Position numbers and translations under genes: made by a program | Shown: one piece after another, positions 7,894 through 15,000 of the stretch | How the letters are laid out: the number at the start of each line of letters is the position of its first letter | Position numbering within the stretch: position 1 is the first letter of the stretch | Assembly: GCA_964618105.1 (NCBI GenBank) | Contig: CAZUAJ010000001.1 | Span: forward strand, 24,896 to 88,895 | Length of the DNA: 64,000 nt | DNA from: an uncultured Clostridium sp. | Lineage (GTDB): Bacteria > Bacillota > Clostridia > TANB77 > CAG-508 | Direction: 5' to 3' | The notes under the pieces: generated by a model | What the model was told of the DNA's origin: nothing | Database searches by the model: none | What the model saw: the letters and a program-made list of their open reading frames with translations, nothing else

Positions 7894-8985
7894 TTAGACA
7901 TTAAATCTAAATAAAACCACATCCCCATCTTGCATTACATATTCTTTACCTTCTGAACGCATTAATCCTTTTTCTTTAACTGCGTTCACAGACCCTTCTC
8001 GTATTAAGTCATTATACGAAACTACTTCTGCACGAATAAATCCTCTTTCAATGTCACTATGAATTTTCCCAGCAGCTTGTGGTGCTTTTGTTCCTTTTTT
8101 TATTGTCCATGCCCTTACTTCTGGTTCACCAGCAGTTAAAAAAGACATTAACCCCAACAAATCATAACTTGCCTTAATTACCATATCTAGCCCTGATTCT
8201 TTAAGTCCCAAAGCTTCTAACATTTCTTTTTGTTCATCATTAGATAAGCTAGCTAATTCTTCTTCAATTTTTACACAAAGTGAAATCACTTCTGCTCCTT
8301 GTTCTTTAGCATATTGTTTTACTGAATTTACACTTTCAGCACTATCAATATTATTCAATTGCTCTTCTGATACATTTGTAACATATAATATTGGTTTCAT
8401 CGTAAGTAAAAAAGCATCTTTTACTATTTCTTTTTCTTCCGCTGAAAAATCCAAAGTTTGAGCCAATTTTCCTTCTTCTAATGCTTTTTTTATTTTTTCA
8501 AAAACATCAAGTTCTTCTTGATATTTCTTTTCTGCTTTTATTTTCTTTTTTGCAGTATCAATTCTTTTTTCAACCGTTTCCAAGTCTGCAAATATAAGCT
8601 CAAGATTTATTGTTTCAATATCACGAATTGGATCTATACTTCCGTCTACATGCACTATATTAGAATTTTCAAAACATCTAACAACTTCAACTATACTGTC
8701 AACTTCACGTATGTGTGATAAAAATTTATTTCCAAGTCCTTCCCCATGACTTGCACCTTTTACTAGTCCCGCAATATCCACAAATTCTATAACAGCAGGC
8801 GTAACTTTTTGCGGATTATAAATTTCTGCTAACCTTGTTAGTCTTTCATCAGGGACTGCAACCACACCAACATTAGGCTCTATAGTACAAAAAGGATAAT
8901 TTGCACATTCTGCTCCTGCTTTTGTTATTGCATTAAATAAAGTACTTTTACCTACATTTGGTAGTCCAACTATTCCCATCTTCAT
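7894..8985 (-). CDS. ychF: Ribosome-binding ATPase YchF
   Basis: GIVGLPNVGKSTLFN P-loop and TGS-type C-terminus. Start moved to MKMGIVG at 8985, with RBS GGAGGAAT upstream. Confidence 0.9.
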   Translation of the reverse strand: MKMGIVGLPNVGKSTLFNAITKAGAECANYPFCTIEPNVGVVAVPDERLTRLAEIYNPQKVTPAVIEFVDIAGLVKGASHGEGLGNKFLSHIREVDSIVEVVRCFENSNIVHVDGSIDPIRDIETINLELIFADLETVEKRIDTAKKKIKAEKKYQEELDVFEKIKKALEEGKLAQTLDFSAEEKEIVKDAFLLTMKPILYVTNVSEEQLNNIDSAESVNSVKQYAKEQGAEVISLCVKIEEELASLSNDEQKEMLEALGLKESGLDMVIKASYDLLGLMSFLTAGEPEVRAWTIKKGTKAPQAAGKIHSDIERGFIRAEVVSYNDLIREGSVNAVKEKGLMRSEGKEYVMQDGDVVLFRFNV

Positions 8986-10287: not shown

Positions 10288-11328
10288 TTAATATATATTA
10301 TTAGATTTAAGTTCTTCAATAATAAATTTATTTGTATTGATTGTAGCTATAATAGAATTACAACTATTTATAATATTTTCTTCGTCAAATTCACTTTTTA
10401 TATTAAAGTCTAAAAAGTCTTTATCGTGTAATCTAATACAAATTTTATTTTGAAAAATGTTTACTTCTAAATTTATATTCTTTTTAGCTAATTCAACGAA
10501 ACAAGCTAACATCCTATTAGAACAATATTTATTTAATAATTCAGGATTATCAGTTTCTATTTCATAATATTGGTTAAATTCTTCATTAGATGATTGTATT
10601 GCATTTTTCAATTTTAAACTATCTAATTTTCTATTACGTATTTTTATAGATATTGGAATATTAAAAGTAAGTGTATAAATACTTGCTATTCCACAGAATA
10701 ATGTAGTATACCAATAACCATAAGCACCCCCATCTTTAAATTTTGAATGAACTTTTGACATAATTAAATTTGTATTACTGTTTAATTTAATATTATCTGT
10801 TGAAACATACGCTTCATGACTATTTGAAAATCCCATACTTTCATAAAGTTCTTGAGACATGCCATAACTATGATCATATTGGCTATTAGGAATTACATAT
10901 TCAATTATAGGCTTACATATTCTTTCACAAAATATATCATTATATTCTTCCTTATCTTCAGTAGAATTTTTTACCCAATGATTTCTTTGTATGGTTCTTC
11001 TAGGTCTTATTACTACTTGGTATATAAAAAAAATAATAACAATTACCATAGAAAAAGGTATTAAAATCTTAAACATAAACGTTAAAGAAGCTTGTCCTGA
11101 TTTATAATCTGGTGTCATATCACTAATCATAAATTTTATCATTAAGATAATTAAAAGAAAAGTTATTATCTCTATAGCAATTTTTAACAAACTACGTGAA
11201 ACTATAGATTTAGCAACAGAAACATTATTGCTAGTTTTTTCTTCTTTTACTTCTTTTTTCTTTCCTTCTAATAATTGATAATTTTGATTATACAATTTTT
11301 GATATAATTCTCTTATTTTTTCTGACAT
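10288..11328 (-). CDS. Hypothetical membrane protein (2 TM plus large C-terminal domain)
   Basis: Long ORF, two hydrophobic helices near the N-terminus. Confidence 0.45.
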   Translation of the reverse strand: MSEKIRELYQKLYNQNYQLLEGKKKEVKEEKTSNNVSVAKSIVSRSLLKIAIEIITFLLIILMIKFMISDMTPDYKSGQASLTFMFKILIPFSMVIVIIFFIYQVVIRPRRTIQRNHWVKNSTEDKEEYNDIFCERICKPIIEYVIPNSQYDHSYGMSQELYESMGFSNSHEAYVSTDNIKLNSNTNLIMSKVHSKFKDGGAYGYWYTTLFCGIASIYTLTFNIPISIKIRNRKLDSLKLKNAIQSSNEEFNQYYEIETDNPELLNKYCSNRMLACFVELAKKNINLEVNIFQNKICIRLHDKDFLDFNIKSEFDEENIINSCNSIIATINTNKFIIEELKSNNIY

Positions 11329-11518
11329 TTGTTACCTCCAAATTTAAAATGCTTTCTTTTTCTTCTTTTAGTTTGTTAATAATTTTATCTTTAGCAGATA
11401 ATTCACCTTTTAAATTATAAATTTCTTTATCTTTTATTGGTTCGAACAGAAACGTCGTTGGAGCGTTTGTCGTGGTTATTTGCGAAAAAACTCTCCAATA
11501 TTTTCGTTCTTTAATCAA
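11288..11518 (-). CDS. Hypothetical small protein, overlaps and is co-directional with the 346-aa membrane protein
   Basis: ORF only; 41-nt overlap suggests coupling. Confidence 0.25.
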   Translation of the reverse strand: MIKERKYWRVFSQITTTNAPTTFLFEPIKDKEIYNLKGELSAKDKIINKLKEEKESILNLEVTNVRKNKRIISKIV

Positions 11519-11584
11519 CTGTAAATATATTTTATCATAATACTTTTAAAAAGTATACTCCCATATTAAAAAATTTCTTCAAAT

Positions 11585-11653
11585 TTCTAGTTTTTTACAA
11601 TTTTTATGTTATAATATCTTTAGTTCTTGCAAATTGTGCAACAGATTGTTGCA
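11585..11653 (+). promoter_or_regulatory. Extended -10 promoter (TGTTATAAT) plus palindrome TGCAACA-GAT-TGTTGCA upstream of the MazF-like gene
   Basis: Read directly; the palindrome lies between the promoter and the RBS GGAGGAAAC. Confidence 0.4.
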
Positions 11654-11692
11654 TAATCTTAAGAGTAATTAACGATAAGGAGGAAACAAATT

Positions 11693-12388
11693 ATGGCTGG
11701 AAATGATATAGAAATAAAAAATAATACTGTTATTCATAAAGATAACTCATTAAATAGACTAGACTTATCTTTCTTGAAACATATAGAATTAGAAGAATTT
11801 AAAAAGAGTGATTTACTAGCTTATTGGATTAATGACTTTGCAGTTTACCACGATGAAGAAAGAACTTTTAATATTTCAAAATCTGGTGTATTTTCTCGTG
11901 GAGATATTATAAAAGTTAATCTAGGTTTTAATATAGGACATGAATTAGGAGGACTACATTACTGTGTTGTATTAAGTAAGTATGATAATACTAGAAATGG
12001 AACATTAAATGTTATTCCTTTGACTTCAAAGAAAACAAATAAGAAATATGATTCTTCTACTGTAAATCTTGGAAATGAATTATATAGTATTTTACAAGAA
12101 AAACTTGATAAAGAAAAACAAAAATTAAAACAAATTTTAGATGAATTAGATAAAATAGAAGATATTCCTATTAATATTCAAAATATAATAGAAAAAGAGA
12201 AAATATATATTGAAAAAATGGAAGATGAAATTTCTAAAATGAAACAAGATAGTATAGCTTTAATAAATCAAATAACTACAATTAGTAAACAAAGGATTTT
12301 TAAAGATACTTTAAGAAGAAATGTAAAACTATCTAACAATTCACTTGACTTAATAGATGAGCAAATTATAAAATATTTTACAAAATAA
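11693..12388 (+). CDS. PemK/MazF-fold domain protein with N-terminal extension and a C-terminal coiled-coil (about 90 aa) tail
   Basis: RGDIIKVNLGFNIGHELGGLHYCVVLS ... NVIPLTSKK matches the PemK/MazF signature (GD[IV]..[VA].[LF]....G.E.GG.RP.[VL]V[LI]S ... V.P.TS). Confidence 0.5.
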   Translation: MAGNDIEIKNNTVIHKDNSLNRLDLSFLKHIELEEFKKSDLLAYWINDFAVYHDEERTFNISKSGVFSRGDIIKVNLGFNIGHELGGLHYCVVLSKYDNTRNGTLNVIPLTSKKTNKKYDSSTVNLGNELYSILQEKLDKEKQKLKQILDELDKIEDIPINIQNIIEKEKIYIEKMEDEISKMKQDSIALINQITTISKQRIFKDTLRRNVKLSNNSLDLIDEQIIKYFTK

Positions 12389-12394
12389 AAAAGA

Positions 12395-12428
12395 GGAGAG
12401 TTGCTATTGAACTCTCCAAAATCTTTTT
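12395..12428 (+). terminator. Terminator of the MazF-like gene
   Basis: GGAGAGTT-N7-AACTCTCC then AAAATCTTTTT. Confidence 0.55.
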
Positions 12429-12495
12429 GGCTCCCGTCTTACTACATAAGTAGTAGAGAGTTAAGTTAAATATATTTTAACATATAATATTTAAC

Positions 12496-12517
12496 TTGTC
12501 AAATCAATATTTGACAA
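12496..12517. repeat. Perfect palindrome TTGTCAAAT-CAAT-ATTTGACAA next to the recombinase pseudogene
   Basis: Read directly; 9-bp arms. Confidence 0.5.
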
Positions 12518-12582
12518 TATTATTATATTCAATAATATTCGAATGTATACTTTAAACTATAAAAAATTACAATTATGATGAT

Positions 12583-12618: not shown

Positions 12619-13968
<1,350 letters not shown>

Positions 13969-14290: not shown

Positions 14291-14468
14291 ATGCGAAGTA
14301 GACAGCTAATCAAATTGCTAAAGCAAAATGGTTGGCACGAAGTATCTCAAAATGGTTCTCACTTAAAGATGAGAAAACGGTAATCAAATAGAAATAATAC
14401 CGGTACATAATAAAGATATTCCAATCGGAACAGCTGAAGCAATACTTAAAAGGACAGGGCTAAAGTGA
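14291..14468 (+). pseudogene. hicA: HicA toxin gene interrupted by a 1-nt frameshift at the A4 run (14375-14378)
   Basis: Frame 1 reads MRSRQLIKLLKQNGWHEVSQNGSHLKMRKR*. Shifted frame continues ENGNQIEIIPVHNKDIPIGTAEAILKRTGLK*. Together these align with HicA (GSHxxxxHP...VPxHxKDLxxGTLxxILKQAGL). Confidence 0.7.
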
Positions 14469-14607
14469 TTAGCCCTTCCTACAACATATATAATATAATT
14501 TTCAGTTTATTAAGGAGAAGGCTTAATTTTATATTATATTAATTATTGCTGATTCACTGCGCATTATTTTCTTCTTTCTATTTTTTAATAATTTGGAGGG
14601 TTTTAAA

Positions 14608-15000
14608 ATGAAAAAAGGATTAACTGTCTTTCCTGCAATATTTACATTTGATGGTAAATATTATAATGTTGACTTTATAGATTTAAAATGCTGTTCAACT
14701 TTCGGAGACAGTATACAAGATGCCTATTTAATGGCTCAAAATGCTATGGGCTTATATTTAGATAATCTTACTAATTTTCCAAGTCCAACTTTAGATGTTT
14801 CAGGTATTTTATTGGATAAAAATCAATTTGTATCATTTGTAAGTATTGACATGGACGAATATCGAAAAAAATTTAACAATAAATCTATAAAGAAGACTTT
14901 ATCAATACCAGAATGGTTGAATTATTTATCTGAAAAAAACAATATAAACTTTTCTCAAGTTTTGCAAGAAGCATTGAAAGAAAAACTAGGTATTGACTAA
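14608..15000 (+). CDS. hicB: HicB family antitoxin (UPF0150 N-domain plus C-terminal DNA-binding tail)
   Basis: FPAIFTFDGKYYNVDFIDLKCCSTFGDSIQDAYLMAQNAMGLYL matches the HicB N-terminal fold; RBS GGAGGG before ATG 14608. Confidence 0.7.
   Translation: MKKGLTVFPAIFTFDGKYYNVDFIDLKCCSTFGDSIQDAYLMAQNAMGLYLDNLTNFPSPTLDVSGILLDKNQFVSFVSIDMDEYRKKFNNKSIKKTLSIPEWLNYLSEKNNINFSQVLQEALKEKLGID

What the first reader, a model, noticed from the sequence alone, without database searches (positions are those of the whole stretch)
11585..12388. PemK/MazF-fold domain embedded in a 231-aa protein with a long coiled-coil tail, no adjacent antitoxin, palindromic operator upstream
Residues about 65-125 carry the PemK/MazF signature (RGDIIKVNLGFNIGHELGGLHYCVVLS ... 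NVIPLTSKK). About 60 aa precede it and about 90 aa of K/E-rich heptads follow. No small antitoxin ORF precedes it; instead there is an extended -10 promoter and a perfect TGCAACA-N3-TGTTGCA palindrome before the RBS. A single-chain toxin with fused regulatory or oligomerisation domains would be an unusual architecture for this fold.
Basis: partly seen in the sequence, partly recalled or inferred. Interest (0 to 1): 0.6.

Follow-up and report, generated by a model that had tools for sequence, protein, structure and literature searches.

The report
MazF-like phage-defence toxin with partner RNA
The gene encodes a member of a phage-defence family published as a "single-protein" MazF-like RNase system (Sma), and it is followed by a conserved small-RNA gene, unannotated in the databases I searched, that is probably its missing antitoxin or regulator.

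Summary
The ORF (11693-12388, +, 231 aa) is real and carries a genuine MazF/PemK fold. The K/E-rich "tail" is not a tail. It is a helical hairpin (aa 129-182) inserted inside the MazF fold, which resumes at aa 183-231. A second helical hairpin (aa 2-58) sits at the N-terminus. The catalytic Thr is kept (T111). The catalytic Arg is replaced by an invariant His (H89).

The architecture is not unique. There are about 1,300 close and 928 clustered relatives, and a full-length PHROG match. [quoted passage not shown]

No protein antitoxin exists. Immediately downstream, however, lies an ~80-nt small-RNA gene (12389-12470, minus strand) with a near-consensus promoter and an intrinsic terminator. Such a unit follows 154 of 162 family genes, against 4 of 742 control windows. 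Its helices covary, and it carries an invariant single-stranded A·AAGA(C/U) motif. A covariance model built only from distant plus-strand copies finds the window copy (E=6.5e-6).

I read this as a two-part cassette (11581-12533): a MazF-fold RNase plus a type III-like RNA antitoxin or regulator. The RNA's role is inferred, not shown. The upstream palindrome is not significant alone, but a dyad at that promoter position is conserved.

The parts
11581..12533 (.). Conserved ~950-bp cassette (promoter, toxin ORF, sRNA gene). It is the only block shared with the closest relative L012 and recurs in different chromosomal contexts.
   Evidence: blastn L012 against window: 95.5% over 11581-12533 only. 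Other relatives share 11692/11705 to 12523/12559 in unrelated gene neighbourhoods.
11607..11615 (+). It has no properly spaced -35 and is shared only with L012.
   Evidence: Sequence; upstream alignment.
11627..11657 (+). Likely toxin promoter, TTGCAA-19 nt-CATAAT. It is positionally homologous to TTGCAT-17-TATAAT in relatives.
   Evidence: Alignment A1; 45 of 53 distinct upstream regions show the -35/dyad/-10 arrangement.
11637..11653 (.). Perfect dyad TGCAACA-GAT-TGTTGCA inside the promoter spacer. It is a candidate operator whose binding factor is unknown.
   Evidence: Sequence. Not significant alone (530 of 2000 shuffles). The dyad AAACA-N2-TGTTT is conserved at the same place in 40 of 53 relatives.
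11693..12388 (+). Sma-family MazF-fold protein, 231 aa.
11696..11866 (+). N-terminal helical hairpin (aa 2-58; H2-32, H36-58). It contains family-invariant W45 and E56. Candidate sensor, regulatory or oligomerisation module.
   Evidence: AF2 secondary structure; invariant columns of A3; no Pfam domain.
11888..12073 (+). MazF fold, N-terminal half (aa 66-127). It carries RGDIIKVNLGFNIGHELGGLHY and IPLTSKK. H89 replaces the catalytic Arg25 of B. subtilis MazF, and T111 corresponds to catalytic Thr48.
   Evidence: Residue-by-residue alignment to EndoA; invariant G82, E84, G86, H89, Y90, P109, L110, T111, S112, K114.
12077..12238 (+). Inserted K/E-rich helical hairpin (aa 129-182). Its length and sequence vary across the family.
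   Evidence: AF2 H129-152 and H160-182; variable gapped block in A3; many relatives match in two stretches.
12239..12385 (+). MazF fold, C-terminal half (aa 183-231). It carries DSIALINQITTISKQRI plus the C-terminal helix. Q193 aligns with Q79 of B. subtilis MazF.
12389..12470 (-). Conserved small RNA of about 80 nt: 5' tail, hairpin 1 (CUCUACUAC-UUAU-GUAGUAAGACGGGAG), single-stranded AAAAAGAUUUU linker, then terminator hairpin.
   Evidence: CM R1, built from plus-strand RNAs of distant subfamilies, matches 12389-12470(-) full length at 37.8 bits, E=6.5e-6. The region is more conserved than the ORF. G.U pairs occur only on the minus strand in L017, L018 and L020, with compensatory changes in L022, L028, L050, L074 and L045.
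12395..12417 (.). Terminator hairpin GGAGAGTT-loop-AACTCTCC. It has a strong U-tract on the minus strand (sRNA) and a weak one on the plus strand (toxin mRNA).
   Evidence: covariation in 6 of 8 pairs.
12474..12502 (-). sRNA promoter TTGACA-17-TAAAAT with TG extension. It is the best promoter-like site in the 1.5-kb region (11 of 12 matches).
   Evidence: conserved in relatives.
12496..12517 (.). Inverted repeat TTGTCAAAT-CAAT-ATTTGACAA overlapping the sRNA -35. Conserved in relatives with a variable centre.

Best explanation
Window 11581-12533 is a compact two-gene defence or toxin cassette.

Gene 1 (11693-12388) encodes an Sma-family protein. It is a MazF-fold endoribonuclease whose fold is interrupted by a helical hairpin and preceded by another helical hairpin. 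It has a MazF-like active site in which Thr111 is retained and the catalytic Arg is replaced by an invariant His89.

Gene 2 (12389-12470, minus strand) is an independently transcribed small RNA of about 80 nt. It has a near-consensus promoter and a terminator that abuts the toxin stop codon.

Proposed mechanism (inferred):
- The abundant, short-lived RNA binds the RNase directly.
- It presents its single-stranded A.AAGA(C/U) linker, between two hairpins, as a pseudo-substrate.
- This keeps the RNase inactive, as in type III toxin-antitoxin systems.
- Phage infection, through transcription shut-off or a phage trigger sensed by the helical modules, frees the RNase. The RNase then cleaves RNA and aborts infection.
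- The dyad in the toxin promoter spacer sets toxin transcription low. Its binding factor is unknown.

Shown: the fold, family membership, the RNA gene and its family-wide linkage. Inferred: RNase activity, RNA-protein binding and the trigger.
For: Fold and active site:
- Pfam PemK E=1.2e-14.
- AF2 pLDDT 87.9. All 50 Foldseek hits shown are MazF.
- The PDB profile search hits MazF in two halves.
- T111, E84 and Q193 are conserved at the MazF Thr48, Glu20 and Gln79 positions; H89 is invariant.

Family:
- 31% identity, E=8e-18 to SaPIpT1028 ORF005 with the same split architecture.
- SaPIpT1028 carries Sma, a MazF-like antiphage system expressed from the integrated island (PMC12409344; PMC12829572).
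- PHROG 1412 matches full length at E=7.5e-41.
- In phages the gene lies between the cI repressor and the integrase.

No protein partner:
- Neighbours differ between loci. There are no conserved small ORFs.

RNA gene:
- The 125 nt after the stop codon are more conserved than the ORF.
- The best promoter and the terminator in the region lie on the minus strand.
- 154 of 162 family loci have a promoter-plus-terminator unit within 300 nt downstream, against 4 of 742 control windows.
- It is present after SaPIpT1028 ORF005, Staphylococcus phage B236 and Streptococcus phage Javan166.
- Helices covary: 6 of 8 and 10 of 13 pairs carry compensatory changes.
- An invariant A.AAGA motif sits between hairpins. 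Pseudo-repeats are visible in L176, B236 and Javan166.
- A CM built from plus-strand RNAs finds the window's minus-strand copy at E=6.5e-6.

Mode of action:
- The RNA gene is inverted relative to the toxin gene in the window's clade only, so it acts in trans rather than by cis-antisense overlap.
- There is no excess complementarity to the toxin 5' UTR.
Against: - The published name "single-protein" implies that Sma was judged sufficient on its own. I could not read the primary paper (Cell 2022). I therefore cannot tell whether the tested construct included the downstream RNA, or whether the ORF alone is non-toxic.
- There are no expression data for the RNA.
- Unlike known type III antitoxins, the RNA is not a multi-repeat array upstream of the toxin.
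- The toxin is not ToxN-, CptN- or TenpN-like.
- The Arg-to-His change could reduce or alter catalysis.
- The window's clade has a divergent linker in most members (UAAAUGAUU), although the window itself has AAAAAGAUU.
Confidence: 0.5

Rival explanations
1. This is a genuinely single-protein, auto-inhibited sensor-effector, as the published Sma name implies. The N-terminal and inserted helical hairpins hold the MazF domain inactive until a phage factor binds. The downstream sRNA is accessory. It might tune expression, supply the terminator, or serve the neighbouring integration module, and it is not an antitoxin.
For: Literature name and description of Sma. Two conserved helical modules have no other assigned role. 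The family gene is found as a solo protein gene in many contexts.
Against: This does not explain why 95% of family loci keep a strongly promoted, structured RNA gene, against 0.5% of controls. It also does not explain the invariant single-stranded motif. Nor does it explain why the RNA travels with the ORF into chromosomal sites lacking any integrase.
Confidence: 0.28
2. This is a type I-like antisense system. The sRNA base-pairs with the toxin mRNA, either at the 3' overlap at the shared terminator or at the 5' UTR, to promote degradation or block translation.
For: In the window's clade the RNA is convergent and shares the terminator hairpin with the toxin gene. This resembles the B. subtilis txpA/RatA and bsrG/SR4 layouts (background knowledge).
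Against: In all other subfamilies the homologous RNA is on the same strand as the toxin gene, so no cis-antisense pairing is possible. Duplex energies with the toxin 5' region are no better than shuffled RNAs in 7 loci. The toxin is a 231-aa soluble RNase fold, not a small membrane peptide.
Confidence: 0.1
3. This is a non-toxic derivative. Replacement of the catalytic Arg by His has inactivated the RNase, and the protein is an RNA-binding regulator of prophage or host transcripts, with the sRNA as its ligand.
For: H89 replaces Arg25 of B. subtilis MazF in every member. The gene sits in lysogeny control regions.
Against: Thr111 and the substrate-binding loop residues are invariant. His can serve as a general acid or base (background knowledge). 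A family member is reported as an abortive-type defence system.
Confidence: 0.08
4. This is an orphan classical type II MazF toxin whose MazE-type antitoxin is encoded elsewhere.
For: NCBI names relatives "type II toxin-antitoxin system PemK/MazF family toxin".
Against: No conserved protein neighbour appears in any of more than 160 loci. The architecture differs from ~110-aa MazF. The cassette moves as ORF plus RNA only.
Confidence: 0.03

Closest known systems
[quoted passage not shown]
   Same: It is a homologous protein: 31% identity, E=8e-18 over residues 42-230, with the same MazF-half, helical insertion, MazF-half layout. Relatives sit in mobile-element lysogeny or defence positions. It has its own expression in the integrated state.
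   Different: The window protein is from an uncultured gut Clostridia lineage. It is shorter (231 aa against 265 aa) with a shorter insertion. It lies in a free-standing ~950-bp cassette. I find a conserved sRNA gene beside it, and beside SaPIpT1028 ORF005 itself, which the "single-protein" description does not include as far as I could check.
Canonical type II MazEF/PemIK (B. subtilis EndoA/YdcE, S. aureus MazF, E. coli MazF)
   Same: Same fold (TM 0.63-0.79 on the target). The Thr48, Glu20 and Gln79 equivalents and the GSExGG loop are conserved.
   Different: It is twice the length, with an N-terminal helical hairpin and a hairpin inserted into the fold. The catalytic Arg is replaced by His. 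There is no upstream MazE gene and no operon.
Type III toxin-antitoxin systems (ToxIN, CptIN, TenpIN, AbiQ/antiQ)
   Same: An endoribonuclease-type protein lies next to a structured non-coding RNA that has an A-rich single-stranded motif and, in several subfamilies, two pseudo-repeats. The role is phage defence. ToxN is itself structurally related to Kid/MazF (background knowledge).
   Different: The RNA lies downstream with its own promoter, on either strand, rather than as an upstream repeat array read through a leaky terminator. There are one or two units, not 2 to 5.5 exact repeats. The toxin is MazF proper, with no ToxN, AbiQ or CptN hits.
Convergent type I systems of Firmicutes (txpA/RatA, bsrG/SR4, par/Fst)
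   Same: In the window's clade the toxin gene and the sRNA are convergent and meet at a bidirectional terminator.
   Different: The toxin is not a small hydrophobic peptide. The orientation is not conserved across the family. There is no 5' complementarity.

Membership tests
[quoted passage not shown] | Sequence homology to SaPIpT1028 ORF005 across both MazF halves and the insertion | tested here: met
   BLASTP E=8e-18, 31% identity, residues 42-230 against 27-260. tblastn hit to PT1028 ORF005. That ORF005 is the published Sma is my inference, since it is the only MazF-like ORF I found in the island.
[quoted passage not shown] | Full-length architecture shared with phage and satellite homologues | tested here: met
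   PHROG 1412 residues 18-230 against 10-235/237, E=7.5e-41. The alignment of 57 members is collinear.
[quoted passage not shown] | Carried on or next to mobile elements or defence islands | tested here: met
   The window gene abuts a degraded serine-recombinase prophage end. Relatives lie between cI and int, next to a serine recombinase, or beside tRNA, IS or inovirus insertions.
[quoted passage not shown] | Protects against phage infection | not testable with these tools
   Known only from the literature for the S. aureus member.
[quoted passage not shown] | Acts as a single protein without a partner | tested here: inconclusive
   There is no protein partner. A conserved sRNA gene accompanies 154 of 162 members.
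PemK/MazF type II toxin (PF02452) | MazF/Kid SH3-like barrel fold and Pfam score above the gathering threshold | tested here: met
   54.9 bits against 23.1. Foldseek E~1e-6, TMt up to 0.79.
PemK/MazF type II toxin (PF02452) | Catalytic Arg (Arg25 in B. subtilis MazF) and Thr (Thr48) | tested here: inconclusive
   The Thr is present (T111). The Arg is replaced by invariant H89.
PemK/MazF type II toxin (PF02452) | Adjacent, usually upstream, co-transcribed MazE/PemI protein antitoxin | tested here: not met
   There is no conserved neighbouring ORF.
PemK/MazF type II toxin (PF02452) | Compact single domain of about 110 aa | tested here: not met
   231 aa with two extra helical hairpins.
Type III toxin-antitoxin | Protein toxin gene adjacent to a non-coding RNA gene | tested here: met
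Type III toxin-antitoxin | Antitoxin is an array of tandem direct repeats upstream of the toxin, separated by a terminator | tested here: not met
   The RNA is downstream with its own promoter, on either strand. There are one or two pseudo-repeats only.
Type III toxin-antitoxin | Toxin belongs to the ToxN/AbiQ, CptN or TenpN families | tested here: not met
   No such Pfam, PDB or fold hits; only MazF.
Type III toxin-antitoxin | The RNA binds and neutralises the toxin and is processed by it | not testable with these tools
   Inference only.
Type I toxin-antitoxin | Antisense RNA complementary to the toxin mRNA; small membrane-active toxin | tested here: not met
   The RNA is on the same strand in most subfamilies. 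Duplex energies are no better than shuffles. The toxin is a soluble 231-aa RNase fold.

The most novel reading that the evidence does not exclude
The whole Sma family, published as a single-protein defence system, is in fact a two-component RNA-protein toxin-antitoxin system. It would consist of a MazF-fold RNase neutralised by a self-transcribed, downstream small RNA carrying an A.AAGA(C/U) pseudo-substrate. This would be the first RNA-neutralised MazF. It would be an evolutionary bridge between type II MazEF and type III ToxIN-like systems, with a gene layout not seen in known type III systems.
Probability: 0.4. Interest if true: 0.8.

Novelty: new variant of a known kind. Interest (0 to 1): 0.62.

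Why it matters
MazF toxins are the textbook type II toxins, always paired with a protein antitoxin. Sma was introduced as an exception that needs no partner. A conserved partner RNA would change how Sma is thought to be restrained and triggered. It would add a new gene layout to RNA-antitoxin systems. It would also link MazF and ToxN-type systems mechanistically.

The practical consequences are direct:
- The RNA should be included when Sma-type systems are cloned, annotated or searched for in defence-system catalogues.
- The family is abundant in gut Clostridia and in Staphylococcus and Streptococcus prophages and satellites.
- The prediction is cheap to test, because the RNA is only about 80 nt long.

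Tried and rejected
1. Trans base-pairing of the sRNA with the toxin 5' UTR and start region. Duplex energies in 7 loci were not better than shuffled RNAs (a first attempt timed out).
2. Rfam. There was no family for the RNA in the window or in 5 related loci at E<=1. Only an unrelated neighbouring S. pyogenes sRNA (Spy779816) and tRNAs were found.
3. PADLOC gave no defence-family hit for the protein or its neighbours.
4. Relationship to ToxN, AbiQ or CptN. None appeared in Pfam, the PDB sequence or profile searches, or Foldseek. The PLTSxK resemblance to the ToxN active-site motif, which I recalled from memory, is therefore only a lead.
5. A peptide encoded in the RNA region. The 22-aa ORF at 12401-12469 is broken by a stop in relatives.
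6. An attachment-site or terminator-only reading of the downstream block. I rejected it because the block has its own near-consensus promoter, covarying helices and strand-specific G.U pairs. It also occurs at sites without prophages.
7. The upstream 76-aa ORF (11288-11518, minus) as an antitoxin. It lies outside the conserved cassette and is absent from relatives.
9. The primary Sma paper is not in the held library. Megablast of the region against phage genomes found nothing.

Full report
**The observation.** The ORF 11693-12388 (+) encodes 231 aa behind an AAGGAGG ribosome-binding site. Pfam PemK_toxin matches residues 69-129 (E=1.2e-14, 54.9 bits against a cut-off of 23.1), but only to profile positions 2-62 of 109. 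A search of PDB sequences shows why. B. subtilis MazF (EndoA/YdcE) aligns in two pieces, with query 66-113 on MazF 3-51 and query 182-224 on MazF 69-107. A family profile gives the same split match at E=5.7e-6.

An AlphaFold2 model built on 57 family members is confident (pLDDT 87.9, pTM 0.79). It contains, in order:
- helices 2-32 and 36-58;
- strands 71-76, 88-93, 104-112 and 123-127;
- helices 129-152 and 160-182;
- strands 187-190 and 195-198;
- helix 215-230.

All 50 Foldseek hits shown against the PDB are MazF/EndoA/MoxT, with E about 1e-6 and target-normalised TM 0.63-0.79. The MazF fold is therefore real and complete. The K/E-rich "tail" is a helical hairpin inserted into the fold, and a second helical hairpin precedes it.

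From the residue alignment, MazF Thr48 corresponds to T111 and Glu20 to E84. Gln79 corresponds to Q193. Catalytic Arg25 corresponds to H89. All four positions are invariant in the 57-sequence alignment.

**The family.** The architecture is common.
- 1341 proteins match in the large database, and the top 120 are nearly all about 231 aa.
- 928 clusters at 50% identity match in the exhaustive search, mostly 230-290 aa.
- PHROG 1412 matches end to end at E=7.5e-41. Its label, "antitoxin mazE-like", is evidently wrong.

The window's clade lives in uncultured gut Clostridia of humans, mice, rabbits, chickens and ruminants. In 61 Staphylococcus and Streptococcus temperate phages and satellites, the homologue lies in the lysogeny module between the cI-like repressor and the integrase (also L096).

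One hit is ORF005 of PT1028, that is, SaPIpT1028. It aligns over residues 42-230 (31% identity, E=8e-18) with the same split layout. [quoted passage not shown] A copy also sits in the S. aureus vSa-alpha island (PMC12409344; PMC12829572; PMC12948488). ORF005 is the only MazF-like ORF I found in PT1028, so I take it to be Sma. The protein is therefore a new member of a known, experimentally supported defence family, and the "unusual architecture" is already on record.

**No protein antitoxin, but an RNA gene.** Close homologues (77-95% identity) sit in unrelated neighbourhoods. The closest relative, L012, shares only window 11581-12533. There is no conserved neighbouring ORF.

Unexpectedly, the ~125 nt after the stop codon are better conserved than the coding sequence. 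On the minus strand this block reads as a gene with three parts:
- a TTGACA-17-TAAAAT promoter with a TG extension (12502-12474), the best promoter-like site in the region;
- an irregular hairpin;
- a terminator (12417-12395) followed by a U-tract that ends at the toxin stop codon.

Variants in L017, L018 and L020 give G.U pairs on the minus strand but C.A mismatches on the plus strand. L022, L028, L050, L074 and L045 carry compensatory changes. In the terminator helix, 6 of 8 pairs show double changes.

**The RNA gene is family-wide.** More distant subfamilies (47-56% identity) carry an equivalent unit on the plus strand, with TTGACT-17-TATAAT, hairpins and a terminator. So do Streptococcus phage Javan166, Staphylococcus phage B236, SaPIpT1028 ORF005 and three unrelated metagenomic members.

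I ran a mechanical survey for a promoter plus terminator spaced 45-140 nt apart within 300 nt of the stop codon. It found such a unit in 154 of 162 family loci, against 4 of 742 control windows from the same loci. Four of the eight misses (L002 and L092-94) show near-threshold units on inspection.

Only the window's clade (61% protein identity or more) has the unit on the minus strand. A covariance model built solely from twelve plus-strand RNAs of distant subfamilies finds window 12389-12470 (-) over its full length. The score is 37.8 bits (E=6.5e-6), and it is the only significant hit in 64 kb. The RNAs are therefore homologous, and the gene was inverted once.

Across 24 diverse phage-borne RNAs, hairpin 1 and the terminator covary (10 of 13 pairs). 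The single-stranded segment between hairpins carries an invariant A.AAGA(C/U) motif. The window has AAAAAGAUU. Several RNAs consist of two pseudo-repeats of a hairpin plus an A-rich tail (L176, B236, Javan166). Rfam has no family for this RNA, and PADLOC has none for the protein.

**Mechanism.** The RNA gene keeps its linkage but not its orientation. Its complementarity to the toxin 5' region is also no better than that of shuffled RNAs. A cis-antisense (type I) mechanism therefore cannot be general.

The most economical reading is a direct RNA-protein partnership of the type III kind. A strongly transcribed, presumably labile RNA would present an A-rich pseudo-substrate to a MazF-fold RNase. 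Phage-induced loss of the RNA, or a trigger sensed by the helical hairpins, would release the enzyme. This is inference.

The main counter-argument is the published "single-protein" label, and I could not read the primary paper. My confidence by claim is as follows:

| Claim | Confidence |
|---|---|
| Membership of the Sma family | about 0.9 |
| The RNA gene is real and functionally linked | about 0.85 |
| The RNA acts as a direct antitoxin | about 0.45 |

**The promoter and palindrome.** TGCAACA-GAT-TGTTGCA (11637-11653) is present. However, a perfect palindrome with arms of 7 bp or more arises in 530 of 2000 shuffles of this AT-rich spacer. Its significance comes from relatives. 45 of 53 distinct upstream regions have TTGCAT-17-TATAAT with a dyad in the spacer, and 40 of those 53 have AAACA-N2-TGTTT.

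In the window the homologous promoter is TTGCAA (11627-11632), 19 nt, then CATAAT (11652-11657). An operator function is plausible, but the binding factor is unknown. No DNA-binding domain was detected in the protein.

**Context in the window.** The cassette lies between two features. One is a DUF3137 membrane-protein gene (10288-11328, -). The other is the decayed end of a prophage: a truncated large serine recombinase (12875-13612, -), a HicA fragment with HicB, and an M23 peptidase. Tail and terminase-sized ORFs follow on the minus strand.

**Verdict.** The finding is real but partly mis-described. The protein belongs to the known Sma family. The point of interest is the conserved partner sRNA, which is absent from Rfam, from PADLOC and from the phage records I checked. 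It makes the "single-protein" model directly testable.

Noticed in passing
window 12619-13612 (-): A large serine recombinase is broken into pieces. The 245-aa ORF has Resolvase positions 60-144 and the Recombinase domain but lacks the N-terminal catalytic part. A separate 96-aa ORF follows. It looks like the decayed integration end of the prophage that occupies about 15-32+ kb.
   Followed up: partly
window 14291-14383 (+) and 14593-15000 (+): A HicA toxin fragment (30 aa, matching profile positions 1-27 of 58) lies next to a HicB-like antitoxin gene. This is a probably degraded second toxin-antitoxin pair just inside the prophage end.
   Followed up: partly
window 11458-11557: A 100-bp segment upstream of the cassette is 92% identical to L012 1104-1202. 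In L012 it lies about 820 bp further from the cassette than in the window. An insertion or deletion separates the two arrangements. The nature of the segment is unknown.
   Followed up: no
L001 4804-4890 (-): In Streptococcus phage Javan166, the Rfam sRNA Spy779816 (76 bits, above gathering) lies convergent to the newly predicted plus-strand sRNA, between the Sma-like gene and the integrase. That intergenic region therefore holds two small RNA genes.
   Followed up: no
L003 9365-9437 (-), L082 4962-5042 (-), L008 about 8900-8975 (-), L061: tRNA genes lie a few hundred bases downstream of the cassette in several unrelated contexts. Different insertions follow the cassette in sister loci: an inovirus-like element with Phage_CRI in L005, a resolvase element in L007 and an IS3-type IS in L008. 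The cassette sits at integration hot spots.
   Followed up: partly
PHROG 1412; phage records NC_054983, NC_021863 and others: The family is labelled "antitoxin mazE-like" in PHROGs-derived annotations, although it has the toxin (MazF) fold. This is a propagated misannotation.
   Followed up: yes
about -100 upstream of the ATG in L013, L017, L018 and many main-group loci: A second conserved inverted repeat, TGTTATA-N5-TATAACA, lies upstream of the toxin promoter in relatives. The window has only a remnant of it around 11606-11616.
   Followed up: no
locus table: Many metagenome-assembled contigs end within 0.1-1.5 kb downstream of the cassette. This suggests strain-variable or repeated DNA there that breaks assemblies.
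   Followed up: no
window 11540-11557: A perfect 8+8 palindrome, ATACTTTT|AAAAGTAT, lies just outside the conserved cassette.
   Followed up: no
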